Assembly (NCBI RefSeq): GCF_002105155.1
Contig: NW_019028989.1
Coordinates: forward strand, 310,001 to 374,000
Reading direction: 5' to 3'
Length of the DNA stretch: 64,000 nucleotides
Source of the DNA: Lobosporangium transversale
Lineage: Eukaryota
Shown: one piece after another, positions 20,434 through 58,794 of the stretch
Layout of the letters: each line of letters begins with the position of its first letter
How positions within the stretch are numbered: the stretch's first letter is position 1
The notes under the pieces: generated by a model
Database searches by the model: none
Told to the model about the DNA's origin: nothing
What the model saw: the letters and a program-made list of their open reading frames with translations, nothing else
Program-made: the position numbers and the translations under genes

Positions 20434-22970
<2,537 letters not shown>

Positions 22971-24423: not shown

Positions 24424-25720
24424 ATGGGTATAAAAGACTTCTGTTCATACCTTTCAAGGAGAGGTCTGCCACCAAAGGAGATTGATGTAACATGAGCTTG
24501 CTGCTGAACCCGACTCATCTTTTGAGTTGGATCTGCTTGGCACTTTCCACAGTGATATACACAATATCATCCTAAGGAAACTCAGTCGAAGCTCTTTCAC
24601 TGCCTATGGCTAATATCATTCTAAAGATCTTTGGTCCTCTTGCCACAGTGACGATACACATTGATGGGCCTCGCTCCAATAAAAAAAGTCCACGCTTATA
24701 GAGATCAAGATGCTAAGCGTACAGCAGCTGATACAGAGCTTGATACACACATAGCCAACATGGAAACCAAGTCCACCGAGGGGAATGGGGTCTCGAAGCC
24801 ACATGATTTCCATTAAAAAGAGTCCTCGATAGCTCTCCACATTCAGTCATAACGAGAAGAAGGAACTCGCAACGCCATTTGGCCGATACAATAACTTTGT
24901 ATCTGCCATTGTAGCAATGAGGCTGATGTATATATTGCCGCCAAATGTATCTGGAGATTCTGATCTTCTCATATATCCTTCAACTCCTAGTCTATGGCAT
25001 TATATACGATAACTTACATTTCAAATATCCCAACCTTTGGTCTTGTCACAAACGCTGAGGTTATCTCATCGCTCACTGACACTGATGCCGAAAAGTTGAC
25101 GGTATCATATGTTCGTGAGGTCCATGCCGTAGCCGTTGAGCTCCTTCAGAGGCCGATTTGACCACTCAACCAGTGTTTTCTTTGGTAGAATTCAAACCCA
25201 GATTTCGCAACAACCAACCTCTGGAAGGCTCCTTCATTACCATGACAAAATGAGGGCTACGATATCCGCTAGGTACCAAAACAAAAATAATCAACCTCAA
25301 CCCAGGTAAACTCCTTTAAATGAACATTTTCCGGGGCATATATAAAAAAAAAGTAATCTAACCCTTGACATTGTTGCTTTGTAATAAGATTCTTTATACC
25401 TAAACGCGCAAAGCCGAATCACTAACGACCTGTTTCCCCTACCGAGAAAGGGAACTCTCTCCCAAAAAATATGAGCTGATCAACTGTAAACCACACGACC
25501 GTCCCGTCAGCTCCGATCATCAAAGAAAGCCCAAGAAAAAAATGGAAAAGGAAAAGAAAGAGGATGAGAAAGAAGAGGCGACTAAGGAGGAAAAGAAGAA
25601 GAAAAAAAAGAACAAAGGGAAGGGCGGCAAGTACATCAGAAAGACTGATAAATCTAGGAAGGTGAAGAAGGCTACTACCGAGGATTGACGGTTGAAGAGA
25701 GAGTGGCGCTAAACTGTAGA
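24424..25720 (+). pseudogene. Decayed XPG/FEN1-like PIN nuclease gene fragment (copy 1)
   Basis: Frameshifted segments MGIKDFCSYLSRRG, FELDLLGTF, IHIDGP, CHCSNEADVYIA, SGDSDLLIY, then a K-rich tail; paralogous to the 25935 copy. Confidence 0.65.
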
Positions 25721-25934
25721 TATTTTTTTACACAACATGGATGTTGTGCGTGGACCCACGTCTGATTTTCTTACAAAAAACAAAAAAAAAAACTGAATAG
25801 ACGTGATGTGTAGATCCACATTTTATTCTCACTTTCCAATCCATCATCTGTCCTACCAAAGCTCCTCAAGCTGTCCAAAACCCCATCTCTAATTACCTGC
25901 CCTGACCCCTTTTTTTCCTTGCCCGATCTATACC

Positions 25935-40900: not shown

Positions 40901-42294
40901 CTTATCTCGGATATTAGAAGATGACTTCATGGAGGCGAGTGTGCTGTTGACCTTATTCTTGAACTTGACACGGAGTGAGGCATTGCCTTCAAGACAAAGC
41001 TCTTCATTATGAGGCGAGTCGACGATATCTCCTATTGACGCCGGTTCGGATGATGTAACGGTAACAAGAGGCATTTGAATAGCTCCTGATTCGTCGGCAT
41101 AGGTGGAAGGTGTGATATGAGAGGTTCGCTTATTGGTAAAGGGCACTGATGGCTCTTTAGGAGCTGGAAATAAAGAAAGTGGTGGGGCACTTGATCTGTT
41201 TTATTGGTATTATGCATATTATAATTAAATGGTGACACGAAGTAAAAGATGAAAATATATCCATTAGTAAGTCTGTTCCCCTCATCCAAAAAAAAAAAAA
41301 AAAAAAAAAACTTAATAAAAGAACCCATCCATTGGCTACGCAAAGGTAGAGAGTTAGAGAAGGAATGAACATGTTATTACCTTTTCTGCTGAAGATGCTT
41401 GTTTTTAAATTTGTTGAGGGCTTTCAAAAAGCTCGATCTTGTGGCTGGGGTCTGTAAAGCATTGCGATGTTCACTGCCATCAATCGATGACTCATTACTC
41501 GTCTGGTGCTCTTGTTGTCGTTGCTGCGGCTGTGAGAAGGATGGTTGCTGGTTGCTTTTTGATAACCTTTTGTCTGTAAAAGTTACCGCCCCTGCCGTGA
41601 GTTTTTTAGGGTTGTTATTCACATCTAATGCTTGCTCTGCTTTCCGAGGGGACAGGTTGTGGTAAGAAACAAATTTGTCATTTGTAATGATGGGTGAGGA
41701 AGGAGTTTGGGTCATTTGAAGTGTATCTCCTAGCATTTGCTTTTCTGATGAAGAGGACGGTGTTGCCAAGGATGGTATTGAGAGTGGCTGTATACCTGAA
41801 GTCCCTGTGTTGACGCCAGGACCAGGACCAAGAGCTACAGATGCCCCTACTCCTGCTCCTCCTCTTCCATTGCTTCGTACTGATGCACCGCCTCGTCCCT
41901 TAACCGCCATCTCTCCATTACTCTTGTTCGACTCCTTTGCTCTGGCTAATGTTCGATGATCAATTTTCAGTTCAATATCCCAATCACCAAAGATGGCATT
42001 CGAAGTTGTGGCTACGAACTGCTTCGATGGTCGACGTGTATGATGATGGTAACGAGGATGATGTAATGAAGCTCTTCGTGTAATGTTGGAAGTCTTTGCT
42101 TTAGTGATGGATCGAGCCCTAGACCGTTCCTGTGATAACGATTGCTCTGTTATCGTTGGCAGCCATGTGTTCGAAGTAATTGGTATCAGACAAGAGGAGG
42201 AGGGATATGATGAGGGAAGGGGTCTGCAATGGCTATGATCGAGAGATATTGAGTCTGACGTGGACTGAAGTATGGAGGGGGTCGGGGCCGACAT
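37925..42294 (-). CDS. Large low-complexity S/Q/P-rich hypothetical protein (at least two exons)
   Basis: 305-aa ORF ending at a GT donor (~41381) plus 1073-aa ORF; no recognisable domain. Confidence 0.7.
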
Positions 42295-43776
42295 CTAGTC
42301 AAGCAAAAAGGTGTAGAATGATGGAGTTGGAAATGGATCGGTGTGAATTAGGGGGAGTGTGCGAAGGGGAAGCGTGAATTTATGGGTGAGTGGCGGATTC
42401 TGTTAAGACTGCAGTCCAAGGATTCCAGTTCGATATTAAGGAAGTTCTGTAGGCAAGATTCAAAGGATGCACGCAAGTTGTGGACAGAGGGACCAGTTAG
42501 TGATCAAGGGTTCAAAGGTGGTCAAGATTGTTTTTGTTTCAACAAAGAAAAGAAAGAGTTGAAAAGAAACTGCTGTAACAAAGCAGCAAGGAACAATAGC
42601 AACAAGGCAAAGGGAGCGTGTGAACGGACCAAGGAAAGAAAATGCAAATATATTTATGAGTGTCTGTTGCTTAATTGCTTGTTTGTTTGTTTGTTTGTTT
42701 GTTTTAAGTATTATTATAATATGAAGTATGAATCAGAATGGTGAATGCGTTGAAGGAATGGTCATGAGAAGAGGATGATGAACCATTACCGATGCTGAAT
42801 AAAGGAGAGTTAACGACTTCTAGTCTAACAAGGTGCTCTATAAAATGACTGCAGCTCATATTCAACGACTTTAGATGTGCTCACACATTGGTGTTTGGAT
42901 AATAATAACAAAATGAGACACTCTTGTTTATGAACCTTGTGCGACCTTTGCCTCAGTTGGCAGGGTAATTTGCCCAGAAGAATGAAGACATGACATCGCA
43001 TGAATGGTATCCACAATCATATTGAAGAGGATCTGTGCTGGCAACGAAAAGAGGAACAAGAAAGACGAGAACATCTGCAGTGCCAACAGATACTTTTTCC
43101 TTTTCTTTCTTTCTTTTTTTTATTTTTTTTATTTTTCTGCTCACAGGCACAAATCTAGTTTACAACAATCGTAAATGCATTATTTTCATCCAAAATAAAA
43201 TTTTGTCCTTCAACTTTATTTATTTAAAAAAGGAGCTGCAACGGTCGTCCTTTCATGCCACGCGATTATCACCATCAAGAATTAAACTTTGGAGGGAGAT
43301 GGTGCCTCTAAATGCATCGGTTTTCGCGCGAAAATTCGGAAATAATAGCCTCTCCAATTGGCAGTGTACCAAAATGCATATCTAAGAGAACCTTACCTCT
43401 CTATCACAACCGTTATTACTACTTATGTGCGCTACTGCTACTTTTACTATCGGTATTATCATTATAACTTTAGACTTGGATTCAAGCGTTTGTGAATTGT
43501 ACGGATGCTTACTAAATTTTAGAGTGATGAGTACTTGCTCAATAATTGTGATTGCTTATAGTACTTGCAAAAGAAAAAGGCCATGAGGCGATATGGAAAT
43601 GTGCTATCACGAGGACCATTGCTTAGAGTCGTTAGGAGGAATGCTGTTGGGCCCGTCTAGTTGCTAAAGCTGTACTTTTTTTTTTTTTTTTTTTTTTTTT
43701 TTGAACCAAAGATCTACTCCAGATCAATATGCACACGTGAAGGGCAAGTCAGCGAAGAAGGTGATAAATGAGTGTA

Positions 43777-44326
43777 GGCGACTGTTCGGACTCCATCTGA
43801 TACTGTATAAACACCTGAATACTGCCACATGCTATTGACCACTCTACGTCCCTTAAACAATATTCTTAGCATACATCTGAACTTTTGCAAGGGATGTGTC
43901 AACACTTCGACAAACATGTAACATTTAATGGCTACATCACAGCCCTTGGATTGTGGAAGCGCTGAAAGTATGCAGAAAACGGGAACCATTTGTGTTTTTA
44001 CTAGCAACAAGCGTGGTTTTAAAAAAGTTTGCCTCCAAGGAACAAATCCTATATCCTTCATTGCTCAAAAGAGACAATCTTGTCTTTTCTGCACCCCAAA
44101 AGCTCGCCATAATCCTATTGAAGCGTTCAGAGGCATTATTTGCCTCATAGTTTGAGGATTAGCAGACTTTCAGTCAAGTTTTATTGTTTTGAACAACACA
44201 GTAAATCCTGTCCATTCGAAGTTAATCCCTTTGGATGGCAGCTATTCAGGGGATGCTAATCAATTCTGCTAAATTATGGTGAAATCAGAGCAGATTTGGA
44301 AAACCAACAAGCATCGAACAGTCGCC
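43777..44326. repeat. 550-bp direct repeat copy 1 (MITE-like, 12-bp TIR GGCGACTGTTCG)
   Basis: Matches 55557-56106 with 4 substitutions seen by eye; ends GGCGACTGTTCG...CGAACAGTCGCC. Confidence 0.92.
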
Positions 44327-44349
44327 TTAATAAGTGAGCGAGGATCTCT

Positions 44350-44434
44350 ATGACGCGCATGGACCATGGGGGCGACTTTTCAAATTCTTTTTTATATAAG
44401 AAATACAAAGTCGCCCCCGGCTAAACATTCCACC
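44350..44434 (+). repeat. Palindromic terminal motif A
   Basis: GGACCAT-GGGGGCGACTTT (44368-44379), 27-nt AT-rich spacer, AAAGTCGCCCCC (44407-44418)-GGCTAAACATTC. Confidence 0.9.
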
Positions 44435-44803
44435 GAGGAGTGTGGCCCTTCGTCTTGAAGAACAATAAATAAAGGCGAAACAAGGTAATGAGTGGAGACT
44501 TGAGTAGATCGACAGTGGCAATAAGATGGTTGATGTGAATACAATTTCTACTGAGTGGAGTCTCAACCTATTGCATAGTGCATCATTGAGAGAGATTCCT
44601 ATGTACTCGAACATTGCTTCCTCAAGTATGTGCATGAACCTGGGCAGAGAAATAATTATCGCAAATATAATATGCAGTCGGGCTCTCCAAGTTATGAGTG
44701 TTGAAGACCTTCGGCTATTTGCAACCATCTTAAGGATTCAAAATATGCCTGCAATATGACGTCTTTTTAAAAAGGAATTGCCCAAAAAATATTTTATTTG
44801 AAA

Positions 44804-46895
44804 TTAAAGTGAATCACCAAATAAGCTCCTTTTAGCTTCGTCCCAACAAACATGTCTTATCTGGGGATACTCCTGGACTTACCAGTGTGATTGGGTCTAT
44901 GTACTTCGTTGCCTTTGTCATCAAAGTCATTTTTCCCGCGAATATACAAAATCATAAAGTCCGGACACAGCACACCATCTCTCGTTACTTTGAAGTCCCT
45001 TTTATCGATTACTGATTTTCCTTCGCCAGTATTCTTAGCTTGGGTCTTTTTGGTCACCTCTGTTATTTCCATTTCTGCTCTGTGAGTTCCGCCGTATGTG
45101 TAGTCTAGGAAATACTCGATTTGGTTTCTGCCATTAGAATATTTCCGATCTGTAAATGCCAAATCAATTGCTGCAGTGCCCTCGTTGTGTTTTTGAAAAT
45201 TAGAAATCGAAACTTGAATAAAAGTGTAGCCAAGTATAAAATCGAATCGAGGTAGTTCGCCTCCATGTATCAAGATATTCTTGCCCTCATCGCCAAATCT
45301 TTTAGGTGGATCTTGAAGATGTTCAAAGCCATCGACTCTCAGCTCTAAAAGTTGTTCCTCCTTCCCAGCGAGGTTAGTCGACTTGAAGATTATGTTGTTT
45401 TGCTTGATAAGCTTCTGAAAGAAAACATCGGAAAATTGTGCGGGTTGCAAGATATTCTGCCTTGCGGCACATATGTAGTCGTTGGGGAGTGGACATAGCC
45501 TGTATAGTCCCAAAAGTGCCGCCTCAGATGCTGGTGTAATTGGGCGCTTCATAATCATACTCCTGCCCTTGTTCCGATACTCATACATTATTCCAAAATG
45601 GTAGAATCGCCAATCAAGTGGCGGTCCTGTATGATCCTTGCTTTGCAGAAACACATCGACTAGAGCTTGACGAGTAGTTGGTTGGAATATCGGTTCAATT
45701 TTACTATAACAGTTCTTCAAGATCTCCAAGAATTGTTCTTTGCGATCCTCCTCATAATCCTTTAGTCGTTGCTTGATCCCATTAGCTGTGAGCTCAATGC
45801 CTTCAATGTCTTCGCCAAAAAAAATATTGAGTTCCCGTGGCACACATCCGGTGGCTTTTTGAATCTCGCCTCGTAGCTCATTCAAATGTTGGCGGCCTGT
45901 TGGGTAGCGATTATCTATGATCACATCCAGTAGCTTATTGAAAATATCAGGCGACATTGGACCAACATACTCGACATAATGTGATGCGTCTCTGAGAATG
46001 AGCTTTGCAAATCTTACCGTACTGCTAAACACTACTCTCGCATTATTTGAGTTGTTCCAGGAGTTGAAAGTCTGTAGAGGCCCTAAAAATGGGAACCTTT
46101 CGGGCGCAGACTTACTACTTTCTGGAAATAGTGCACCATGCTCATCCACGACAAATAATGCCTTTTGACTTCTTGACTGGAGTAGTTCAGCAAAGATACA
46201 GGTGGCGCTATTCACATAAGGATCCTTCGATGTTTCAATTGCGACCATTTCTTTGAGCTCTGAGGCTGTCAAAATATCTTTGTTGATGGATAAGAAGATT
46301 TGACAGATCAGCTTTGATGCGGCAGTTTTAGTGTCACAATTGCTAAGCTTACTAGCATCGGCAATATAAAGCACTGGCCAACCATGTGCGTATGCCTTGG
46401 CCACAAGGAACCATGAAATGTATGATTTACCGACGCCCATTGGACCCGATAAACACTTCTGGACAGACCACTCACTGTTCTCGAGCTCATTCCATAGCTT
46501 CATCATCTGTTCGGTCACAAAAAACTCGCGACCTTGGTAGCCTTTCGCAAAGAATTTTGGGCTCTGACCAAGATCCATTGAAGTAATTCGATCTCCACCC
46601 TTCACCGTCAAAAGCGATTGGAACTTGGTGCGGGGTTCTGGTGCGTACTTGTTATTCTCGATCAAATCCAGTATATGGAGGGGTAAATCTACGGGTTCGC
46701 CATCGGCTGCAATATGTCGCTTCCAGGAACGACAGCGCTTTGCAAGGTGCTCTTTGAGCATATAAGAATAGCGAGACTGACGTGAGTATGAAATAAACAA
46801 ACTTCCTCAAGAATCATCAAAACTATGAGTGGGATGAACTCACCTTTTTCGTCTTCTGTGTCTTCTAGGTTCCTTTTTGGACTTCTTGGGGCTGT
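44804..46895 (-). CDS. Crinkler-type P-loop NTPase plus restriction-endonuclease-like protein, 5'-truncated, probable C-terminal frameshift
   Basis: 647-aa ORF with Walker A LSGPMGVGKS, Walker B LFVVDEH and C-terminal FDFILGYTFIQVSIS; a shifted frame continues VQEYPQIRHVCWDEAKRSLFGDSL* to 44804. Confidence 0.7.
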
Positions 46896-47026
46896 TTAAA
46901 ATCCACGCAAAAAACAACAAGAGGATAGTTAGATAGGCCTTGATAAAAGTACCTATATGCGATAGGGGAGCCGAAATAAACTTAGCAAAAAGCCTCACGA
47001 GAGGACAGTGAAGGTCAGAGCATACG

Positions 47027-47084
47027 CACGGGCCATGGGGGCAACTTTTCAAATTCTTTTTATAAAGAAATTCAAAGTCGTCCC
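47027..47084 (+). repeat. Palindromic terminal motif B (degenerate)
   Basis: CACGGGCCAT-GGGGGCAACTTT...AAAGTCGTCCC. Confidence 0.85.
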
Positions 47085-47446
47085 TGAAGTGTAAATATAA
47101 CGTAATAAAGCCTATTTGGCTTCATAAAGCATTTTTTATTTTTATTTTTTTAAACATTGTTCCAATGATGTGTCCAATGCGCCGAGCCTCATCAATACGA
47201 CGAGAGACAACAACGATGTGACTCTTCCCGAAACTATCAAGGCTATCAAGCGCTCTATGATCGGAAATATTGATAGGTATTTTTAAACAGTCTTTATCCA
47301 TAATAAATGACTCGGAAACAGAACTTGTAATGTCCCTCCAGACTATGAAGAGCTTAATTCAAACAATGTGATTATGTGGGTTTTATCATGAAGAACTGTT
47401 TTATTTGAACAAAATACGTTGGTGTATTTTTCATAATGATCGAGTA

Positions 47447-49315
47447 CTACGATTGAGTTCCTGAGGCACGCCTCTTGTTCGCTGAAGCTGATGCTGAAGC
47501 TGATGCTGAAGCTGATGCTGAAGCTGATGCTGAAGATGAACGTGAGACTACAGGGCTATTATAGCTGAATCTGTTTACAATCTCATCTTTCATGCGATCG
47601 TACAGAGAAAGAACATAACAAAAGAGAGTTTCTGCATCCTCTCTTAGCGTCTCCTCCTCCTTGAGTCTTAGATCTCTCAAAACCTCCTTGGCTTTGTACG
47701 TCAATGAGTCGTCTTCCTCCATCGTGCACTCTACGAAAGTCCATTTGAATGCGTCGGTTACAATGCCGAATGACTTGATGCGTGTGGCGGGCCTCTCTTG
47801 TCCATCGTCATCCGCCTCAGTCCGCTTTCGTTTTTTTTGTTGAAGTGCGACGTCGAGCTGTACTATATTTTGAGCCATACCTTTCACATGATCGTCCTTT
47901 TTCACCTCCGTGACTCCAAGAACTTGCGACTGGTGGATACGATCCAACACAGCAAAATCCACCGGTCCATGTCCCCGTAGGCCGGTTATCAGTTCTTGTT
48001 GCTCAAGATACATATCCACTTTGTAGGACTGCATGGCTCCAACCATGAAAGAGTCGACGATCGAGTTCCTTGTGAACTCGCTAGAGCTAGGACCAAAAAT
48101 GTAGGCCTCGTTTTTCCGGCTGCATTCTTTGATTATTTCCTCCAACATCAGCTTCTCATCGTCAGTCATCGCCCTTGGTTCAATATCAAACAGTGGGAGA
48201 AACTCAGGGCCTTTACCGACGTTGTATTCTTCCATCACTTCTTTCCAAGTGAATTTCGAAAAACTCTTTCCAGGATTGTCCAGGGATATGACAAGGTTTT
48301 TCCAGCTACTCTCCTTTGCAATCGCCAAAATAGACCGAAGTTGGGGATCGCTAATGAGCATTGTCGGTATTGAGCTACCCGGCAGATGCAAGAATATCTT
48401 GAGGTCCTTGTCCTCAGCAAACTGGTCAAAGTACTTCTCAAGGAAAAGATGAAATTCAGCGAGAGTTGCCGTCTTGGTATCCGTCACGAAGGTGCAAACA
48501 ATCTTCTTTCCTCCTCTTTTGTCGATGATTCTCAATGCTGCAACGCAATAGAATGCAAAAAATAAAAATAAAAATAAAAAAGACATAAAAAGTGGTTATA
48601 ATTCCGTCTTTCCAAGCTGTAACGATAAAAAAAATTGCTAATTCATTCTATCCACATCTATCCACACTTACATATGGAGGTATTCTTCGTCAATGCCTCG
48701 AGGTCCGACAGCTGTTTACGCAAAGCTGCAATCTCGGGGTGTTGGGTATCTAGGTTGAACAACAGGTAATGGAGCAGGAACTAGTTGATTAATTAAGATA
48801 CATCCCAAACATAAAGGGTTATCTTTCAGAAGTCAAATCAATGACGTCATGAAAGAAAATAAGCTTCATCAATTTGAAAATATCAGTCCATCAAGAGCTA
48901 AATACATACCTTGCGGCGGCAGCTTAACAAAAATATGGATAGTTTTCCTTGGAAGTTCAGAAGTAAATATCTCCCAAAGCTCCATTGACGCGATTGCGAG
49001 AGCCTCTTTTGACTCGATTTCTGACTCAAGCACGGTGTTGCCTTCGTCAGGGATGGAAACCTTGTAGAGGGTGAGCTTGTCTGCGGCAACATGATCGAGT
49101 TCTGGCTCCTTCGCTGCCTTGATGGCTTGCTTGAGTTCGCCGACCGAACAATTGGAAGGAATCTTTACAGGAAAAGGCGTTGCTTCTCCCTCAACAATGC
49201 AAAAAATCTTTAGTTCAGTTCGCTCAGGGATTTTAGGCCCACTGGTGCTTGAACCCTCTTCATACAGACTAGATCGAGGTGATACGTTTCGAGATGATGT
49301 TCCGGTCTTTCTCAT
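47447..49315 (-). CDS. Crinkler (CRN) effector-like protein: ubiquitin-like N-terminal header plus PD-(D/E)xK nuclease-like domain, 3 exons
   Basis: Header LKIFCIVEGEATPFPVKI..VGELKQAIK..AADKLTLYKV..TIHIFVKLP; C-terminal GPVDFAV..LGVTEVKK..GMAQNIVQL..GIVTDAFKWTF; (AS)n tail. Confidence 0.82.
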
Positions 49316-49589
49316 TGTGATTTCAAACCTTTTTAAAAACAAGGATGAAATGGACAGAAGGCAGAAAATAGGAAAAGTTTGATAAAAATGTTAAAGGATG
49401 TTAATTCAGTAGCAGGATGGTTCAAAATTGTGACAATGTAGGCTGTGAAGATGAAGTTGAGGGAGGAAAAAAAAAGTTGTTTGCGTGACGAAGGAAAGGA
49501 GTGACAATTGATAAATTTGTTCCTTATAAGCCAGGACTGAGGAATATTTTTTCTTTATAATTGTCGTTCTGGCGACCAGAGCCATGCCG

Positions 49590-49667
49590 CGGTAGAATGT
49601 TTAGCCGGGGGCGACTTTGGATTTCATCTCTATAAAAGAATTTGAAAAGTCGCCCCCATGGTCCGTG
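49590..49667 (-). repeat. Palindromic terminal motif C (inverted relative to A/B)
   Basis: GGGGGCGACTTT (49607-49618)...AAAGTCGCCCCC (49646-49657)-ATGGTCCGTG; reverse complement aligns with motif A over about 75 bp. Confidence 0.9.
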
Positions 49668-50016
49668 CACAGACCATCTGCGCCGCCGTGTCACCACATC
49701 TGATAAAGTCCTGCAGATGGGGCGGTGTGGCTTTTTTTTAAATAAAGAGCAAAAGGTCAAAGGGTCATGCGATTTACTTTCCATCCAATGAAATCATGCC
49801 ATCTCATCTCTTTTCCTTATCACATCACAAAATGTTAAAACACTTTCATCGCCATGAGAAACATCCATTTTATTCCTTTCCTTCCTCCATCCCTTTCCCT
49901 TCGCTCCCTGAATTCCTCCACCAGGTCGCTATAAACCAAGACAACCAGTACGTACATGCTTTCTGCGCGCACCAATGAAGCTTGCTCTTAAACTAATACT
50001 CTGCAATTCATAAACA

Positions 50017-50580
50017 GTGCGCGAAGAACCCACTACCATCGAGATACTGCGCAAGCGGCTTGCTGCTATTTCGCTTGAACTCGCAGATGCAAAGGACGAT
50101 CTTGAAATATCACAGGCACAACTTGAGGGCACCCTATCCTGTCTTTCTGAAACTCAACTTGAGCTGAAGAACACTAAGGATGCTCTTGCCAATAGCGAGC
50201 GTGCACGCCTGGAGGCCAACCGCGACCGAGTGTTGAGTCGCCCTTATGGAAAGCAGGAGGTCTTTGCTATTTTGAAGTTCCAGCAGCCTCAGCCATTGCC
50301 TATTGGAGGCTATCGTCTCTTTGCGCTGCAGCGCAAGGCTGTCGATCGTACCTTGGACCAGTTCATTGCTGACAATCCTGACCTCGACCCCGTTGAGATT
50401 GCAGAGTTGCGATCTGATCGTTCTCCAAGAGGCGAAAACGTTTACCTACAGATGAAAGATGACGTGGCTGCACCAATCGACTTCAGCCGCCGCAACTTCG
50501 TTCTCAAGGATAGCAAGACTGAGGAGGAGATGATCGTTTATGTTCAAAAGGTCTTTAACACTCATACTCAGGAAAAATAA
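50017..50580 (+). CDS. Small coiled-coil protein with DUF3627-like C-terminus (tentative); true start probably in an upstream exon
   Basis: 187-aa ORF: heptad-rich N-terminal half, then DRVLSRP..KQEVFAILK..YRLFALQRKAV. Confidence 0.5.
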   Translation: MREEPTTIEILRKRLAAISLELADAKDDLEISQAQLEGTLSCLSETQLELKNTKDALANSERARLEANRDRVLSRPYGKQEVFAILKFQQPQPLPIGGYRLFALQRKAVDRTLDQFIADNPDLDPVEIAELRSDRSPRGENVYLQMKDDVAAPIDFSRRNFVLKDSKTEEEMIVYVQKVFNTHTQEK

Positions 50581-50673
50581 GAATCATTCCCATGATAGTC
50601 TATTGTTCACTCGATAACAAAATAAAATGAAATTGCTACTCATATACTATAAACTATCAACATATTACCTACT

Positions 50674-53600
50674 ATGTCTGAAAATACAAACCGGACTTAC
50701 AAAAAATTTGAATCAGTTTACTTTGCTGCTGACAAGAAGCAAACCTTGGGTCCACAAGCAAGGGCTCACGAATGGGCTGATGCGAACAGTAATACTTTCT
50801 TTGTGATGTACGAAAGTGGCCTTTCTCCGGATGGCAAGAAGTCGTCTTATGAGTTTGCAAGCTACAAGGATCTACCTACATTTTTGGATATATATAACAA
50901 ACTCCCGAACCCTTACAGATGCTTTTTCGAGCAAATCCGAGAAGGAAATCCCTGTTGTGAGTACTACGACATTGACTGGAAACTTACTACGACCTCCAAG
51001 GGAAACACCGATCCTCCTTCACTCGAAGACGGCGCTAGTCCACTCGTCCCTAGCGAGGGCATCGATGCTATTGCGCAACTTGAAAGACGAGTGTTTGGTG
51101 AGTTTCTTGCTGCTCGCAACCAATATGCACCGAAATATCCCATCACCGAGAATCAATGCCGAATCTTGACTTCATCCACTCATAAAAAGATATCATTGCA
51201 TGTCATGATACCAACGTACACATTCGAGAACAATCACAGACACCTTTGGACATTCCTGCTTGATTTTTTCAAGGATATCAAAGCTGACCAGGATCAGAAT
51301 GAAGGTAATCTGCTCAAGTACATTGATTCAGGTGTATACTCAAGAAGCAGAAGCATCCGATGTCTCGGAAGCTCGAAACGTAGAGACATAACCAGACGTT
51401 TCATCCGTACCCCATGGCATCAGCCATCTATGCATGCATTGGATGCAGAATTTTTCATCACCAATGTTCAGCCCAATAGTATCAAAGTGGAAAAATCTCC
51501 AGCTGCCGACAGGTTCTCAAGGCGCCAGCGTAACCAGATACCGTCAACTTCAGCAGCACTTGGAGATGCATCTAGAGATATGACATTACCACACCAGTTG
51601 TCCGTATCTGTCGTCTCTGATGCTGTACATAGAATATTTGCACAACACAAGCATGCAAACCTATACAGAATACAGTATGATGGCCAAGGCGGGATCTATA
51701 AGCTGCAACGAGTTCAATCTGGTCAATGCGATGTATGCAAGAGAAGACACGACAACGAGAATGGCTATCTTCAAGTGAGTCGAAATGGAAGAGTGACGCT
51801 GTATTGCTACAGAGCTATTGCCGAGGGTTTATCCCGCAATATCCTCGTCGGGGAATTGGATTTCGGCGAAAAGATTGTCCTGAGACAACATCTTGCTACG
51901 TTGGACACAGATCAGCACTTGCATCCAGGCGAAGTGTATGCGTCACCCTACATCAAATACCACAAATCACCGATGAGTCTCTTGATAAGGAGCGAGACTG
52001 GCACTGGAAAAACGACATTCTTGGAGCAGTTTATTCAAATGAACCCAAAGTTGACGTATCTTGCAATATCTCCAAGACAGACACTAGCCTCCAGTCTAGA
52101 GAAGAGACTCGGGTTTAAAAGCTATTTGGATTTTCCCTCCACTTATATCAAAGGTCAGAAGATTGTCATACAAGCCGAATCTTTACATAAACTGGATCTT
52201 GCATACTACACCATGGATGTTGTTCTGGTTCTGGATGAAGTGTCATCTATCTTTGATCAGATGACAAGTGTCGCCACCATGAGGGGCTTCCACAAGGCCA
52301 ATAATGATATATTACGAGACTTCATTAAGGTATCCAGGAAGGTGATTGCCTTGGATGCTGATCTAACAGACCGAGACGTTCAGGTCATCAAGGAGCTTCG
52401 AGATGATGTCCACATTATCCATAATACATTCAAGCCACAGCAAGGAGATCTCGTCTCTCTTTATGAGAATGAGGCTTCTCTGAAGTTAAAGGTTATTAAC
52501 TTAGTCAAGTCTGGAAAGAAAGTGTGGATATGTAGCACACAGAAGGCTGAAGATGCTGAAAGTTTACATAGTGAATTGAAGAATATGGGGTTCATTGGGA
52601 TGTGCATCACTGCGAATTCCCTGGAGTTGGAGAAGAGGGCATTTGCACAGAATATTAATGAAATCGCACCAACTCTCGACTATTTTATTCATACTCCAAC
52701 CATCACAGTTGGGCTTGATTGTAACATGCAACACTTTGATTATGTTGCAGGATTTTTCATGTCACAAAGTAAAGTCAATGTAGAGACATGTAGGCAAATG
52801 CTCAGAAGAGTACGGCACGTCCAGCAAAAAGAATACCTTGTCTATATCAGCAATTCAATAAACAATCTTCCAACAACACACAACGAAATAGTCAAGTATC
52901 TTTGCAGCCAAGAGGTTCAAATCAAGGGATGCGCTATGGATACGAATGGCTTTCCGCTTGATCTGAGGGTAGGGCAAGGTCCTGGAGTGAAGCATGATGT
53001 TGGCGATATTTACTACACAATATTCATCAATGCACTGATAAAGAAGCATCTATCAATGAATGATTTTCTTCAGCGTTTCATTGCTCAAATGGTTCAGGCT
53101 GGCTGCAGAGTTGTTGGGCTATCTAATCAGCCCAAGGACCTTAAGGTTTCTGAATCTCTGAAACAGAGGACAGCCACCCTACTTCAAGCCAAGTATACAG
53201 GGATATCGGAGGCCAAGGTAATTGATTACGAAGAATTACTACGACTGGAAACAAGGTCAGACCTTTCTACTGAAGAGTATTACGCAGTACAAAAATTCAG
53301 GATTATGGACGCCTACGGCATTGAGGACCCATCTATCCTTACGCCTGAATGGGTGCAGACCTACAGTAACCCAAAAGAGATGAAGGTCTTTCAGAATCTG
53401 CGAGCCTTGAAGAACGACCCAGAGTTGAAGATGACAAAGCAGAGCGACTCGTATCCTCTGGGGAAAGATCAAGAAAGGAGGGACACTGGCGCCATACTAC
53501 ATAGACTACATCATTCAAAGTATACCAAACTAAAGTATGCAAAAGACATCCTCTTTGCCTGTGGTTATGACTCCCCATTTGATCCCAAATGTAGAGCATC

Positions 53601-53865
53601 CACTGCTCTCAAATCAAGCCTGGATGAGCAATGGGAATCGCTATCGTCAAACATGCGGAATATTTGCACACAACTTCTAATCCCGTACCCATCTCATAGC
53701 AACTGGAACTTCAGAAACCGGCAGAACTTTGTCAACTCTGTCTTGAATGAGGTTTTTGGTATTCATATAGTTGGAACTAACAAGAAAGCCACAAGCTATC
53801 ATATAAAATACATGAGGGAAGTAGGGAAGAATTGGGAAGGTTTCTTCAATGATGGAACTAAATGA
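50674..53865 (+). CDS. AEP primase-polymerase + Zn finger + UL9/origin-binding-protein-like SF2 helicase (intronless)
   Basis: AEP motifs YYDID, KISLHV, IDSGVYSRSRSIRCLGSSK; Zn finger CDVCKRRH..LYCYR; helicase RSETGTGKT, VLVLDEV, IALDAD, TPTITVGLD, QMLRRVR. Confidence 0.88.
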   Translation: MSENTNRTYKKFESVYFAADKKQTLGPQARAHEWADANSNTFFVMYESGLSPDGKKSSYEFASYKDLPTFLDIYNKLPNPYRCFFEQIREGNPCCEYYDIDWKLTTTSKGNTDPPSLEDGASPLVPSEGIDAIAQLERRVFGEFLAARNQYAPKYPITENQCRILTSSTHKKISLHVMIPTYTFENNHRHLWTFLLDFFKDIKADQDQNEGNLLKYIDSGVYSRSRSIRCLGSSKRRDITRRFIRTPWHQPSMHALDAEFFITNVQPNSIKVEKSPAADRFSRRQRNQIPSTSAALGDASRDMTLPHQLSVSVVSDAVHRIFAQHKHANLYRIQYDGQGGIYKLQRVQSGQCDVCKRRHDNENGYLQVSRNGRVTLYCYRAIAEGLSRNILVGELDFGEKIVLRQHLATLDTDQHLHPGEVYASPYIKYHKSPMSLLIRSETGTGKTTFLEQFIQMNPKLTYLAISPRQTLASSLEKRLGFKSYLDFPSTYIKGQKIVIQAESLHKLDLAYYTMDVVLVLDEVSSIFDQMTSVATMRGFHKANNDILRDFIKVSRKVIALDADLTDRDVQVIKELRDDVHIIHNTFKPQQGDLVSLYENEASLKLKVINLVKSGKKVWICSTQKAEDAESLHSELKNMGFIGMCITANSLELEKRAFAQNINEIAPTLDYFIHTPTITVGLDCNMQHFDYVAGFFMSQSKVNVETCRQMLRRVRHVQQKEYLVYISNSINNLPTTHNEIVKYLCSQEVQIKGCAMDTNGFPLDLRVGQGPGVKHDVGDIYYTIFINALIKKHLSMNDFLQRFIAQMVQAGCRVVGLSNQPKDLKVSESLKQRTATLLQAKYTGISEAKVIDYEELLRLETRSDLSTEEYYAVQKFRIMDAYGIEDPSILTPEWVQTYSNPKEMKVFQNLRALKNDPELKMTKQSDSYPLGKDQERRDTGAILHRLHHSKYTKLKYAKDILFACGYDSPFDPKCRASTALKSSLDEQWESLSSNMRNICTQLLIPYPSHSNWNFRNRQNFVNSVLNEVFGIHIVGTNKKATSYHIKYMREVGKNWEGFFNDGTK

Positions 53866-53927
53866 ATACAACGGAGGGCTTGAGCAGATTACGATATTGT
53901 ATTCTTTTTGAAAAGTCATGGATTAAT

Positions 53928-54004
53928 ATTTAACCGGGGGCGACTTTGGATTTCATCTCTATAAAAGAATTTGGAAAGTCGCCCCCATGGTCTGTGCGCG
54001 TCAT
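53928..54004 (-). repeat. Palindromic terminal motif D (inverted relative to A/B)
   Basis: GGGGGCGACTTT (53936-53947)...AAAGTCGCCCCC (53975-53986)-ATGGTCTGTG-CGCGTCAT. Confidence 0.9.
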
Positions 54005-54035
54005 GATGGTTTTTGAAAGTACGTGCAATCGGTCT

Positions 54036-55424
54036 CTAGAAGCTGATTTTGGTTCTCCAATAGTCTTGGATGCACTGTTTGTAGTTGGAATGCTGTAGAG
54101 CCACCCATGTTGCCTCAGAGATATCGAAGCCTTCCCATTGAACCAGAAACTCCATGTCCTCACCTTCCCCGCGATGGTCTAAAATCCTAGCAACCTCGTA
54201 TCCCTCCTGCGCTGTCTCTGCCATAGTCTCATCTGCAGTGTCTAGTATGTTAGGCTGCGAACTAGCTACAGATAGGAACGCTTCTTGTAGTTCTAAAAGA
54301 CTTCGACCATGATTTAGTTTGACTTTGATGCTGGGGAGCTTCTCATAAGCAACCTGATACTCATTATTGTCTGGAAAGTCAAACGCATCTTGCATCCAGA
54401 ATGTGTGGTGCGTCTGAGTGGGGATATTATGGATTGACACGACTCTCTTGATATTCATAAGCAGGCAACAAAGCTTGAATTGGAGATCAAACGTCTTTGC
54501 GTCTGAGAAACGGATGGGAGCGTCGTGTGTGAACTTGGAGAAGGTGGATTGCATGTCTCCAAAGCACCCTTCGATGCTTGACCGAAACCCACCAAACGCT
54601 TTATTGTAATGTAACTCTTGGTCTGTCATGGCGATCCCCCTAGTCTTGCGCACAGGATAAGAGAAATTTTCGTAGGACAGTGCATTTGATGGTTCGACAA
54701 TTTGTCTAACGAACCCACTGTAGCCACCGTCAAGAGCAACACAGTCCAGCTTGTGTATATGCGATGCAATGTTCATCTTCACAAGCATAGTCCCATCATT
54801 GAAATCTCGACAAGGAGCTGGCTTGGATGCAAACAATATGATATTGTTCATGTCTGAACACACTTGAATACGAAAACCCGACTTCTTGAGTTTATAAGAG
54901 TAGAGACTTGGCTTGTCAGCACCGATGTAGCTGACTCTTGTGTCATGTCCGTCTAGATTCAATGTCACATGCTTGAATGGATCAGGGTTGTTCTTGGCAA
55001 GTAGCAATCGTAGCTTCAAACTCGAGCACATATCTCTCATCATTGAGGTTATGTCATCATGTAGTTTCACAGGGTCCCGAAGATAAAATTCCCTGTGCAA
55101 GTCGTAAAAGGACGTCTTTGGTATGAACCTTGACATTGTAGACAATGAATCTCCTGTGATTAGTGCATACAGGAGCAGAAGACCCTTTTCGACATTACGA
55201 TATGGGCTACCATAGTCACGCACTCCAAATACTTGTGTCAGAAAAAAGAACGTAGGGATGAATCCTAGACGGTCAAGCACCATTGACTTGACGTGTGTTA
55301 CGTCAGATATCTCTTTCATCTCTGTGCGATGAAACTTGGCTTTCTTTATAGCTGGCCACTCCTCTTGCATGAACCTCCACTGAGCCTCAACAAGGCGTAC
55401 ATATTCCTCAGAAACAGCGCTCAT
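54036..55424 (-). CDS. PIF/Harbinger/IS5-like DDE transposase with C-terminal chromodomain (intronless)
   Basis: LNLDGHD, FNDGTML, VALDGGY, YNKAFGGFRSSIEGCFG catalytic pattern; chromodomain YEVARILDHR..EFLVQWEGF..EATWV..CIQDYW. Confidence 0.85.
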   Translation of the reverse strand: MSAVSEEYVRLVEAQWRFMQEEWPAIKKAKFHRTEMKEISDVTHVKSMVLDRLGFIPTFFFLTQVFGVRDYGSPYRNVEKGLLLLYALITGDSLSTMSRFIPKTSFYDLHREFYLRDPVKLHDDITSMMRDMCSSLKLRLLLAKNNPDPFKHVTLNLDGHDTRVSYIGADKPSLYSYKLKKSGFRIQVCSDMNNIILFASKPAPCRDFNDGTMLVKMNIASHIHKLDCVALDGGYSGFVRQIVEPSNALSYENFSYPVRKTRGIAMTDQELHYNKAFGGFRSSIEGCFGDMQSTFSKFTHDAPIRFSDAKTFDLQFKLCCLLMNIKRVVSIHNIPTQTHHTFWMQDAFDFPDNNEYQVAYEKLPSIKVKLNHGRSLLELQEAFLSVASSQPNILDTADETMAETAQEGYEVARILDHRGEGEDMEFLVQWEGFDISEATWVALQHSNYKQCIQDYWRTKISF

Positions 55425-55556
55425 ACAGATATACTCTTTGCAAGCTATTGGATATAAAGCGCTTTATTACAACTCCTCTATATTATTCCATGTGTTCACT
55501 TTATTTTCATCCTACCTATTCAAATATTCACTTCAATTTACAATCCATCCGAATAT

Positions 55557-56106
55557 GGCGACTGTTCGGACTCCATCTGATACTGTATAAACACCTGAAT
55601 ACTGCCACATGCTATTGACCACTCTACGTCCCTTAAACAATATTCTTAGCATACATCTGAACTTTTGCAAGGGATGTGTCAACACTTCGACAAACATGTA
55701 ACATTTAATGGCTACATCACAGCCCTTGGATTGTGGAAGCGCTGAAAGTATGCGGAAAACGGGAACCATTTGTGTTTTTACTAGCAACAAGCGTGGTTTT
55801 AAAAAAGTTTGCCTCCAAGGAACAAATCCTATATCCTTCATTGCTCAAAAGAGACAATCTTGTCTTTTCTGCACCCCAAAAGCTCGCCATAATCCTATTG
55901 AAGCGTTCAGAGGCATTATTTGCCTCATAGTTTGAGGATTAGCAGACTTTCAGTCAAGTTTTATTGTTTTGAACAACACAGTAAATCCTGGCCATTCGAA
56001 TTTAATCCCTTTGGATGGCAGCTATTCAGGGGATGCTAATCAATTCTGCTAAACTATGGTGAAATCAGAGCAGATTTGGAAAACCAACAAGCATCGAACA
56101 GTCGCC
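55557..56106. repeat. 550-bp direct repeat copy 2 (MITE-like)
   Basis: Near-identical to 43777-44326, same orientation, same 12-bp TIR. Confidence 0.92.
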
Positions 56107-56630
56107 TTATGTTACCCAATATATGGGATATGTACTTTACACATTGATATTAACAGCAATGCCATATCTAACGCGTCTCTGAAAAGAAAAGAAAAAACAA
56201 AAACAAAAACAAAAACAAAAGTCCAGTTGAAGTTGATTGCTGTAAGTTAAAGGAGAGGCTCTTGCACGCACACATGCATAAGTTTTTGAATGGTTTACAA
56301 TGGCTGGCAAATTACAAAGTGAACATTACATAAATTGCACCTATACCGACTACGCGCTACAATCGTCTACTTCCTACACTATCGGTGGTACTGAATACCA
56401 TGAGAGAAATTGTTTGCTATTAAAAGCTCTAACATGTTGAAGGAGGGGAAATATAGTTTTGTAATTTCGTCCCATGGGAAGGGGATGCACGGTGCATGAG
56501 TATCTATTGAACGTAATACAATACGAAAAAAAGTAGATGGCTGTGAAGGAAGTGCCAAAACATTTGTATATACAGTTTTATGTGGTTCCGTAAGCTGAGA
56601 GCACGACATCGCCTTGTTGGAGCGATATTG

Positions 56631-57627
56631 ACTAACGCGCAAAAATGAGTGAGAGTTTTAGTTTTTTTTACTTTTACTTTAATGTCTCAATGAGAACTCG
56701 TTGCATCACCATGGATATTGGCTGTATGGTATCCTTTGGCCTTGGAAGAACTACCGGTTTAAGAGAATATGGTCTATCATCATCATTGTGATAGTGATAA
56801 GAGAAGTATAACTAGTCATTTACTCAGTTTTGAAGGCAAATTTTAGAAAACTCAACCCTTTGCTTTCTATTAGCTCTGGCCCGCTTGCATCAAAGCCCAT
56901 GCTTCCTATAGACTCGTCACCAGCCTAACTCCCTAAATACTACAATTCGTGTATCATAGAAGCAAGATTTCTTTTTGAGACCGATATGAAAAAAATGTTT
57001 GTGTAAAATCATATGGCGTAGAATATATGTCACAGAGCCACATACCTAGACCTCAGATCATCAGCTTTCCGTCTGAAGCCAATAGCAAGCTAAGAGATAT
57101 AGTTCCTATCTAATATATAGCAAATGAGAGTTCTTTTACAGTGCTTTGGTATTTGGCACTATCGCCTAATGTCATAGTATTCGGTAGCTCGAGGTTTGAG
57201 CTATCTTTCTTATCAGAATACTGTTGGTTGGTATGCCAAATGAAAAAGACAATCCAAAAATAATGTTTTCATATCGGTCTCAAAAAGAAATCTTGCTTCT
57301 ATGATACACGAATTGTAGTATTTAGGGAGTTAGGCTGGTGACGAGTCTATAGGAAGCATGGGCTTTGATGCAAGCGGGCCAGAGCTAATAGAAAGCAAAG
57401 GGTTGAGTTTTCTAAAATTTGCCTTCAAAACTGAGTAAATGACTAGTTATACTTCTCTTATCACTATCACAATGATGATGATAGACCATATTCTCTTAAA
57501 CCGGTAGTTCTTCCAAGGCCAAAGGATACCATACAGCCAATATCCATGGTGATGCAACGAGTTCTCATTGAGACATTAAAGTAAAAGTAAAAAAAACTAA
57601 AACTCTCACTCATTTTTGCGCGTTAGT
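56631..57627. repeat. Perfect 362-bp inverted repeat with 273-bp spacer (foldback element)
   Basis: 56631-56992 is the reverse complement of 57266-57627, with no mismatch seen by eye. Confidence 0.92.
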
Positions 57628-58794
57628 GAACTCTGATGAAAAGAATGAGGGAGGTTCTATCCAAGACACTAGAATAGCCAATTGTTATTAGCAGCAAAAA
57701 AAAGTCGATAATGATGGTCGTGCTCAGCTTAAAGCTTGCCATTTATCGTATGTATTTAGATATACAAATGAATATCTTAGAACACGCTTTCATTACCACA
57801 GAGTATTACAATACTTGACCAGCATTTTTTTTTACTTAACCTTAACAGCTCAGCAATCGGAAGAATGTTTCTTTATTTGTTTCCTCGTGGGCGCCACACT
57901 ATTTAGAACAACAAAGCCCTAGATTTTCCGAAATTCTCCATGACCTCCATCTCCCTCATTATAGCTCTGTCGTATACATCTTTAAGTTTAAAAAAATGCT
58001 CATGGCTCGATGGGCCCGACTGCACGCGAGCATTGGTATATCTGTGTGGAGAAGAGATAATGTCCAATTAGTGAAAATCGTAATTACCCTATCTTTTCTT
58101 TTTTGTTTTATATAGGCTATATATGGTGCGCTTTATCCAGCATGACCCATCTATCAAGGAGTAGATAGGCAGAGCTGATATATGTTGGATACATTTGGAT
58201 TGAAACAATGAGAAGTTATGACAAAGAGGAGAAATGAATGATAACCAAAACATGTCTCCTTTTACCCATATATTATTTTTGGTTCCCTTGAGGATTACAT
58301 GTTCTATTTGAGAATTAGGTTTTCTATCTTTGTGATATGCATGTATATCTGTGTGAATGGACTCATTTTCAGTTGAGAGAGAGAGATCAAAGGGGGTATG
58401 GCAGTCCAGAGTAACGGCGATCATGTGGGTCAATTTAGTATAAGATTAGAATTTAGTCGTGGAGTACCATGACTCGAAGCGAATGTGATACTAGGCGGGA
58501 AAGGAAAGCAAAAAAAAAAAGCAGGCACATACCCATGCATTCATACCCTAACATACCGACATAAAATTGGGAGATCGTTTCGGGTCTGTCTTTTAGTCTG
58601 TATACTTTGGAGGCGGAATAAAACGACAATACAAAAAAATTGATCGAGCTGTTATTCTTCTCTTTTTTCTTTTCTTTACTTCTCTTTCCATCAAAGTTTC
58701 CATTTTCACATTTGTACATTACTCTCCCACGCCTTTTCCCTCTTTATACATTCTATTCTCATAACTTATACAAAGTATATCAATACAAAAAGCC

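What the first reader, a model, noticed from the sequence alone, without database searches (positions are those of the whole stretch)
43777..56106. Candidate replicative DNA transposon: primase-helicase + chromodomain transposase + Crinkler cargo between 550-bp direct repeats
Seen: a 12.3-kb block bounded by two ~99% identical direct repeats. It holds an intact AEP/UL9-like primase-helicase, an intact DDE transposase convergent on it, a small accessory ORF, two Crinkler-type genes and four related palindromic termini, with no housekeeping genes. Known: PIF/Harbinger elements normally pair the transposase with a Myb/SANT protein, Polintons use pPolB plus a retroviral-type integrase, and Helitrons use HUH-Pif1, so none matches this gene set. 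Inference: a possibly undescribed element that copies itself with a virus-like primase-helicase, integrates with a DDE enzyme and carries effectors. It could instead be a pile-up of independent insertions.
Basis: partly seen in the sequence, partly recalled or inferred. Interest (0 to 1): 0.9.

Follow-up and report, generated by a model that had tools for sequence, protein, structure and literature searches.

The report
Fungal transposon with giant-virus primase-helicase
In soil fungi of the Mortierella family, a cut-and-paste enzyme sits again and again beside a giant-virus-type primase-helicase, a second virus-like gene and often a Crinkler gene, which likely makes a new kind of jumping gene that would start the copying of its own DNA.

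Summary
The block is real and is not a chance pile-up. Its primase-helicase has PrimPol-type, zinc and SF2 motifs and a fold like HSV UL9 that includes the origin-binding tail; its relatives are giant-virus proteins. The accessory ORF is DUF3627-like, also viral. The transposase is PHIS/IS5-type with a chromodomain. In other Mortierellaceae, 11 of 37 helicase hits have this transposase within 4 locus tags or in the same gene model, 6 more share a contig with the accessory gene, and a Crinkler homologous to the window's lies among them in two species. One relative pairs the same transposase with an unrelated D5-type primase-helicase. The 550-bp repeats (99.3% alike) each carry their own 12-bp inverted ends and belong to a high-copy family, as in KolobokP composite elements. 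Four 51-bp hairpins resemble the UL9 origin. Best reading: an undescribed composite-like DDE transposon lineage that likely unwinds and primes its own DNA. Not shown: the true ends (no exact target duplication, no empty site) and any replication activity.

The parts
43777..44326 (+). Left 550-bp long terminal direct repeat, with its own 12-bp terminal inverted repeats (GGCGACTGTTCG); member of a high-copy non-coding family
   Evidence: summed contig depth about 200 times (X1) and 80-100 times (X3) the flank, loose ends at 43777 and 44329
44350..44438 (+). Hairpin H1: 12-bp arms GGGGGCGACTTT around a 27-bp spacer of 85% A+T; candidate origin or transposase site
   Evidence: (z -4.3)
44857..46806 (-). 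P-loop NTPase gene of probable Crinkler C-terminal (NTPase plus nuclease) type; no Crinkler header found; probable further exon upstream; multicopy
   Evidence: weak NTPase families only; donor at 46843; depth 5-25 times flank
47025..47098 (+). Hairpin H2, degenerate copy
   Evidence: (z -1.9)
47447..49315 (-). Crinkler gene in probably three exons: ubiquitin-like header, linker, probable nuclease domain; homologous to the Crinkler found between accessory gene and helicase in related elements
   Evidence: PF20147 E 1e-22; 39% over 323 columns to P0254
49587..49668 (-). Hairpin H3, inverted relative to H1, upstream of accessory gene and helicase
   Evidence: (z -3.0)
50014..50580 (+). Accessory gene, main exon: coiled coil plus DUF3627-like domain of giant-virus KilA-N/Bro/MSV199 proteins
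   Evidence: 22 of the 24 matches at E<=0.001 listed as viral, top E 1e-6; DUF3627, score 0.89, a lead
50674..53865 (+). Primase-helicase: PrimPol-type AEP domain, zinc finger, UL9-like SF2 helicase and UL9-like C-terminal DNA-binding region
53925..54004 (-). Hairpin H4, 60 bases after the helicase stop, between the convergent genes; forms an 80-bp inverted pair with H1 (87.5%)
   Evidence: (z -2.8)
54036..55424 (-). DDE transposase of PHIS/IS5 type (DDE_Tnp_4) with C-terminal chromodomain; D, D and E invariant in 26 of 26 aligned relatives
55557..56106 (+). Right 550-bp long terminal direct repeat; its junction with the transposase upstream region is also seen in run X8

Best explanation
This is one copy of a multicopy Mortierellaceae element that links a PHIS-type chromodomain transposase to a giant-virus-type primase-helicase, a DUF3627-like gene and Crinkler genes, and it likely moves as a composite-like DNA transposon whose primase-helicase would open and prime its own DNA at the hairpins. 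Shown: the gene set, intact catalytic motifs, linkage in 12 other assemblies, several copies in this species, and the repeat-interior-repeat layout. Inferred mechanism: (1) the transposase cuts and joins at the GGCGACTGTTCG ends of the 550-bp repeats and also moves solo repeats; (2) the UL9-like tail binds the inverted 12-bp arms, the helicase melts the A+T-rich spacer and the AEP domain lays a primer; (3) host polymerases extend it, so the element gains copies in place or as an excised circle, since it has no polymerase or capsid; (4) the chromodomain steers insertion to methylated heterochromatin; (5) the Crinkler genes ride as cargo. My odds per step: conserved module 0.95; mobile unit 0.85; 550-bp repeats are the ends 0.55; hairpins are origins 0.5.
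For: Linkage: 11 of 37 fungal helicase hits have the transposase within 4 locus tags or fused in one gene model, and 6 more share a contig with the accessory gene; on contigs of 8 kb or more the counts are 10 and 15 of 24 (tallied by hand). A rough chance model gives P below 1e-11. Full sets: EC991_008112-008115 (transposase, accessory, Crinkler, helicase) and EDD11_007105-007106 (helicase+transposase, Crinkler+accessory models). All 22 linked transposases fall in one clade of 50 rows (support 100) and occur in all three of its subclades. Linked pairs co-diverge (Mantel rho 0.84, 13 pairs, p 0.0004). P0261 joins the same transposase to a Prim-Pol plus D5/SF3 primase-helicase, so the function recurs with unrelated proteins. 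Helicase: motifs conserved; top solved-structure match is HSV UL9, 510 residues aligned, model 411-1061 on chain 31-819, Z 24.7, against about 310 residues for other SF2 helicases; UL9's DNA-binding domain is 536-851 and its origin is two inverted boxes around an AT-rich spacer (PMC12543377, passages). Copies: six accessory loci on six contigs of one L. transversale assembly, 98-99.5% identical to the window's; interior depth about 5-7 times the flank. The transposase-repeat junction appears in a different study at depth 24.8 against 3-6 for flank contigs.
Against: No exact target duplication: outer flanks GTA and TTA, inner TTA and TAT. No empty site or second full copy was seen, because no genome was held and only 40000-47100 was laid with contigs. 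The 550-bp unit is roughly 100-200 copies, so two could flank the block by chance or by recombination. 20 of 37 helicase hits show no partner, including the three closest to the window's (P0001, P0002, P0003); the lists show only cluster representatives and many contigs are short, but some helicases may stand alone. The D5 swap is a single gene model. Gene order differs between species. Hairpins share GGCGACT with the repeat ends, so they may be transposase sites. Hairpins are not enriched after viral relatives of the helicase (4 of 32 against 32 of 367). Nine of the 13 Mantel pairs are one close subfamily and host kinship is not controlled. The UL9 structural match has rmsd 14 A. Summed contig depth is not a true copy number.
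Confidence: 0.55

Rival explanations
1. The mobile module is real, but its ends are not the 550-bp repeats. The unit is a hairpin-bounded replicon (H1 to H4, with or without the transposase), or a plasmid-like circle that integrated by recombination into a solo repeat; the 550-bp units are independent MITEs.
For: H1 and H4 form an 80-bp inverted pair around Crinkler genes, accessory gene and helicase. The 550-bp unit has its own ends and many other flanks. No exact target duplication.
Against: The transposase lies outside H1-H4 yet is the most regular partner of the helicase elsewhere. The transposase-repeat junction looks multicopy in X8. The two repeats are 99.3% alike and share variants that are minor in the family (43840, 44020).
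Confidence: 0.2
2. An ordinary cut-and-paste PHIS transposon that carries the primase-helicase as a helper for unwinding or donor-gap repair, like the RecQ helicase of KolobokH and AcademH; the hairpins are transposase-binding sites and no origin fires.
For: No polymerase in the block. Hairpin arms and repeat ends share GGCGACT. Helicase-carrying DDE lineages exist (PMC9587614). Relatives of the transposase in Mucorales and in two AT-rich contigs show no helicase, so the transposase works alone.
Against: The primase active site is conserved, the UL9-like DNA-binding tail is kept, and the one replacement seen is again a primase-helicase. A plain helper helicase needs none of these.
Confidence: 0.2
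3. A remnant of an integrated giant virus into which unrelated transposons and Crinkler genes piled up.
For: Helicase and accessory gene both have giant-virus relatives.
Against: The same four genes recur together across genera. Fungal helicases form one clade (20 rows, support 100). No capsid, polymerase or other viral core gene is in the block. 0 of 63 viral loci hold the transposase or accessory profile (a weak test for the narrow accessory profile).
Confidence: 0.05

Closest known systems
PHIS superfamily (PIF/Harbinger, ISL2EU, Spy; IS5-related)
   Same: DDE_Tnp_4 transposase (26 of 26 rows; IS5 family model weakly in 16 of 26); short TIRs starting GG; PIF/Harbinger is on record in Mortierella (PMC5751038, passages); accessory genes vary in the group (HarbingerS, PHISTA; PMC12730594, passages).
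   Different: No Myb/SANT partner found; chromodomain tail; carries primase-helicase, DUF3627-like gene and Crinkler; long direct repeats; no exact 2- or 3-bp target duplication at this copy.
KolobokP composite-like transposons (Kojima and Bao 2022, PMC9587614)
   Same: Interior flanked by long terminal direct repeats that have their own 11-18-bp TIRs, with many solo repeats (parts 1-3 of 6 read).
   Different: Kolobok transposase and His-Me nuclease, 450- or 660-bp repeats, 4-5 kb, animals only. Here PHIS transposase, 550-bp repeats, 12.3 kb, fungi, primase-helicase.
KolobokH and AcademH (helicase-carrying DDE transposons)
   Same: DDE transposase with an SF2 helicase in fungi (KolobokH: PMC9587614; AcademH: recalled, paper not held).
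   Different: Their helicase is RecQ-like with no primase and no origin-binding domain; different transposase superfamilies.
Polintons/Mavericks and Teratorn
   Same: DDE enzyme joined to viral replication genes (PMC6431247, passages). That review expected new elements from coupling a primase with an integrase.
   Different: No protein-primed polymerase, retroviral-type integrase, capsid or packaging gene; far smaller than Teratorn; it would depend on host polymerases.
HSV UL9 with oriS, and giant-virus AEP-UL9 primase-helicases
   Same: Helicase core and C-terminal region align with UL9; full-length structural relatives in Bodo saltans virus, Marseillevirus and klosneuviruses; hairpins are inverted boxes around an AT-rich spacer like oriS (PMC12543377).
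   Different: Sits in a 12-kb fungal element beside a transposase; arm sequence differs from the oriS boxes; binding untested.
Crinkler genes tied to transposons
   Same: CR C-termini are often NTPase plus REase and linked to helitrons (PMC5289972, passages); Crinkler-like genes amplify inside hAT and mariner elements in fish (PMC12957317, abstract and passages).
   Different: Here a Crinkler is a recurring member of one element family beside a primase-helicase.

Membership tests
PHIS superfamily (broad) | IS5-related DDE transposase (DDE_Tnp_4) with intact D, D, E | tested here: met
PHIS superfamily (broad) | Short terminal inverted repeats | tested here: inconclusive
   12-bp TIRs on each 550-bp unit; that this transposase uses them is not shown
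Canonical PIF/Harbinger | Second gene with Myb/SANT domain | tested here: not met
   no such Pfam match among the nine ORFs scanned; the small ORF is DUF3627-like
Canonical PIF/Harbinger | 3-bp TAA/TTA target duplication | tested here: not met
   GTA/TTA outside, TTA/TAT inside; one copy only, and TTA follows the right end in 3 of 3 cases seen
PHIS sub-lineage (ISL2EU, Spy, Pangu, Nuwa, PHISTA) | Placement in a tree with Repbase references | not testable with these tools
   reference sequences not held
KolobokP | Long terminal direct repeats with own TIRs and solo copies | tested here: met
KolobokP | Kolobok transposase and His-Me finger nuclease | tested here: not met
   transposase is DDE_Tnp_4; no such nuclease family among ORFs scanned
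Polinton/Maverick | Protein-primed polymerase B and retroviral-type integrase | tested here: not met
Helitron | HUH Rep fused to Pif1-type SF1 helicase | tested here: not met
   N-terminus is AEP-type and helicase is UL9-like SF2
Teratorn or endogenous giant virus | Capsid, packaging and polymerase genes | tested here: not met
   none in the 12.3-kb block
UL9-type origin system | Initiator with SF2 helicase and C-terminal DNA-binding domain | tested here: met
   model 411-1061 aligns to UL9 31-819, Z 24.7, rmsd 14.2, 510 residues
UL9-type origin system | Sequence-specific binding and opening of the inverted boxes | not testable with these tools
   needs biochemistry; indirect test in viral loci showed no enrichment
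Crinkler (CR) proteins | Ubiquitin-like header plus enzymatic C-terminus | tested here: inconclusive
   met for 47447-49315; no header found for 44857-46806

The most novel reading that the evidence does not exclude
A new class of eukaryotic mobile element: a self-priming DDE transposon. It carries oriS-like origins and an interchangeable viral primase-helicase (UL9-type or D5-type), replicates independently of host origin licensing as an excised circle or in place using host polymerases, reinserts into heterochromatin through a chromodomain transposase, and is a vehicle for Crinkler gene amplification and shuffling in early-diverging fungi.
Probability: 0.35. Interest if true: 0.92.

Novelty: new variant of a known kind. 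Interest (0 to 1): 0.8.

Why it matters
Known eukaryotic DNA transposons either rely wholly on host replication or bring a polymerase (Polintons, Teratorn) or a rolling-circle enzyme (Helitrons). An element with only an initiator, a primase-helicase plus origins, would fill the gap between cut-and-paste elements and integrating viruses. It shows giant-virus replication genes kept under selection in a fungal family with no known DNA virus of this kind. It gives a compact, testable initiator-origin pair for the giant-virus AEP-UL9 protein family. It also offers a concrete route for the spread of Crinkler genes in Mucoromycota.

Tried and rejected
No whole genome was held, so no search for second copies or empty sites was possible. 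The metagenome scan gave one 1.2-kb contig. Viral contigs held no close helicase or transposase relative and no exact hairpin match. Prokaryote genomes gave two short AT-rich contigs with the transposase and no helicase; they are probably eukaryotic contamination. No RNA holder was listed; X5 looks spliced but is only a guess. Only 40000-47100 was laid with contigs; no listed contig bridges the left outer junction, and helicase and transposase depth are unknown. X8 was hoped to show an empty site but looks base-converted (C>T 48, G>A 10) and holds the element. Hairpins after viral helicase genes: 4 of 32 against 32 of 367 control genes at the low threshold, 1 of 32 against 1 of 367 at the highest, so no support. 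The 550-bp unit shows no protein similarity to held proteins and no Rfam match, so an LTR-retrotransposon or RNA reading was dropped. The wide structure search with the accessory model was filled by its coiled coil. The NTPase gene has no clear solved relative. The careful tree did not finish; FastTree was used, and no donor virus can be named. Literature searches listed no paper describing this gene set; Repbase and subscription journals were not searchable, and Zhang et al. 2016 (PMC4857004) and the AcademH paper were not held. Supplements were not read.
Full report
Observation. The block 43777-56106 is as described. The two repeats are identical at 549 of 553 bases. Between them lie, in order: hairpin H1, an NTPase gene (-), H2, a Crinkler gene (-), H3, an accessory gene (+), the primase-helicase (+), H4 and the transposase (-). 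Host genes flank the block. The closest named proteins come from Mortierellaceae; the accessory protein is 98-99.5% identical to Lobosporangium transversale models.

The proteins. The 1063-aa ORF keeps the three AEP motifs (D99 in 22 of 22 rows, H176 in 21, D218 in 20), a C-C-H-C zinc site and SF2 motifs (K446, D521 and E522 in 22 of 22) (motif labels are recalled). Its profile matches HSV UL9 (E 2e-14) and, weakly, poxvirus D5 primase (0.009) and human PrimPol (0.04). The model (mean pLDDT 77) matches UL9 best among solved structures. The alignment runs from residue 411 to 1061 against UL9 31-819 (Z 24.7, 510 residues, rmsd 14.2), while other SF2 helicases cover about 310 residues. [quoted passage not shown] Full-length relatives are giant-virus proteins. 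In a 70-row FastTree the 20 fungal rows form one group (support 100), with no reliable sister. The accessory protein is a coiled coil plus a small domain whose structural matches are KilA-N, DUF3627, Bro and MSV199 proteins of large DNA viruses; the Atlas gives DUF3627 for residues 85-197 at 0.89, a lead only. The transposase has DDE_Tnp_4 in 26 of 26 and Chromo in 22 of 26 aligned relatives, with invariant D, D and E.

Linkage in other genomes. Locus tags and contig lengths were tallied by hand. This is a lower bound, because hits are cluster representatives, only 120 of 151 transposase hits were listed, and 13 of the 37 contigs are under 8 kb. The three helicases closest to the window's show no partner. 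With P0279, linkage covers 12 assemblies from Lobosporangium, Linnemannia, Entomortierella, Dissophora, Haplosporangium and Mortierella. Linnemannia zychae has transposase, accessory gene, Crinkler and helicase as four consecutive tags; Mortierella claussenii has helicase+transposase and Crinkler+accessory as two consecutive fused models. That Crinkler is 39% identical to the window's over 323 columns. In a tree of 126 transposase rows (6 short rows dropped), all 22 rows that I labelled linked lie in one clade of 50 (support 100) and in each of its three subclades; Mucorales relatives lie outside. Pair identities correlate (rho 0.84, 13 of 14 pairs used, p 0.0004), but nine pairs are one subfamily and host kinship is not controlled. 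One model (P0261) joins the same transposase to a Prim-Pol plus D5/SF3 primase-helicase. This is a single case, but it suggests that the function, not the protein family, is what is kept.

Copy number and ends. One L. transversale assembly has six accessory loci on six contigs in the window's 90% cluster. Contigs of four runs laid on 40000-47100 give flank depth 105-125 (X1) and about 10 (X3), depth 609 and 72 just inside H1, and 22,000-27,000 and 800-980 on the 550-bp unit. Summed depth is not a true copy number, and X1 may be the window's source, but the pattern suggests about 5-7 close copies of the interior and 100-200 of the unit. Loose ends at 43777 (4 contigs) and 44329 show the unit with other flanks, so it is also a solo element. 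The left copy's private base at 43974 has about single-copy depth, which argues against a collapsed or invented repeat. In X8, from another study and apparently base-converted, a contig carries the junction of the transposase upstream region with the unit (30 of 30 bases after conversion) at depth 24.8 against 3-6 for flank contigs, a hint that this junction is itself multicopy. No exact target duplication exists at either pair of junctions; PHIS relatives make 0-, 2- or 3-bp duplications (PMC12730594, passages). No empty site was seen. The layout repeats that of KolobokP, whose long direct repeats have their own TIRs and move as solo units (PMC9587614, parts 1-3 of 6).

Hairpins. H1, H3 and H4 have perfect 12-bp arms around 27-bp spacers of 70-85% A+T; H2 is degenerate. 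They sit at gene boundaries, and similar hairpins with other flanks exist in the runs. Inverted boxes around an AT-rich spacer is the plan of HSV oriS, and the neighbouring protein keeps a UL9-like tail, so an origin role is my first choice. The arms also share GGCGACT with the repeat ends, so transposase binding is a real rival. A test in 32 viral loci found no excess of hairpins after the helicase gene.

Mechanism. Shown: a conserved, multicopy module of transposase, primase-helicase, DUF3627-like gene and Crinkler. Inferred: the transposase acts on the repeat ends; the primase-helicase binds and melts the hairpins and primes synthesis; host polymerases finish the copy; the chromodomain guides insertion; the Crinkler genes are cargo. 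History, inferred: a stand-alone chromodomain PHIS transposon, still seen in Mucorales, took up two giant-virus genes early in Mortierellaceae. None of 63 viral loci held the transposase or accessory profile.

Comparison and novelty. It fails defining features of canonical PIF/Harbinger, KolobokP, Polinton, Helitron and Teratorn, while sharing a transposase type with PHIS and a layout with KolobokP. Seven literature searches listed no description of this gene set; passages of PMC5751038, PMC9963178 and PMC12730594 do not mention a primase, passages of PMC8647823, PMC3671162 and two preprints added nothing on it, and Repbase and Zhang et al. 2016 could not be checked. A review expected such primase-integrase couplings (PMC6431247, passages). 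I rate it a new variant of DDE transposons on present evidence, and a new class if self-priming is shown. Interest 0.8.

Noticed in passing
window 56628-57630: A separate fold-back element: 376-bp arms, 98.7% complementary, 251-bp spacer, no protein match, 520 bases right of the block.
   Followed up: partly
window 37925-42294 (-): The 305-aa and 1091-aa ORFs are probably one gene: an RNA-like contig of X5 skips a 185-base CT..AC intron at 41196-41380. No Pfam family of note.
   Followed up: partly
window 44466: All laid contigs of X1, X3 and X5 have one extra A here, so the window probably has a one-base assembly error in non-coding DNA.
   Followed up: no
window 44844-47020: The NTPase gene belongs to a larger family in this species, with diverged copies at depth near 925-975 in X1 and spliced-looking contigs in X5.
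   Followed up: no
P0261 (BGW39_001063): Prim-Pol plus D5/SF3 primase-helicase joined in one model to the same transposase family; may mark a second element type.
   Followed up: partly
P0269 and P0028: One helicase subtype is paired with two different transposase subtypes, which suggests module exchange between elements.
   Followed up: no
L034, 77 bases after the helicase ORF: A viral contig has 15-bp inverted arms around a 30-bp AT-rich spacer after the related helicase gene, like H4; only 1 of 32 loci at this strength.
   Followed up: no
L065 and L066: AT-rich contigs with this eukaryote-type transposase lie in bacterial genome bins; probably contamination.
   Followed up: partly
window 43777-56106: CpG is lower in the 550-bp units, helicase and transposase (o/e 0.53-0.66) than in the left host region (0.81) and the Crinkler and accessory genes (0.83-0.93), possibly a trace of methylation.
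   Followed up: no
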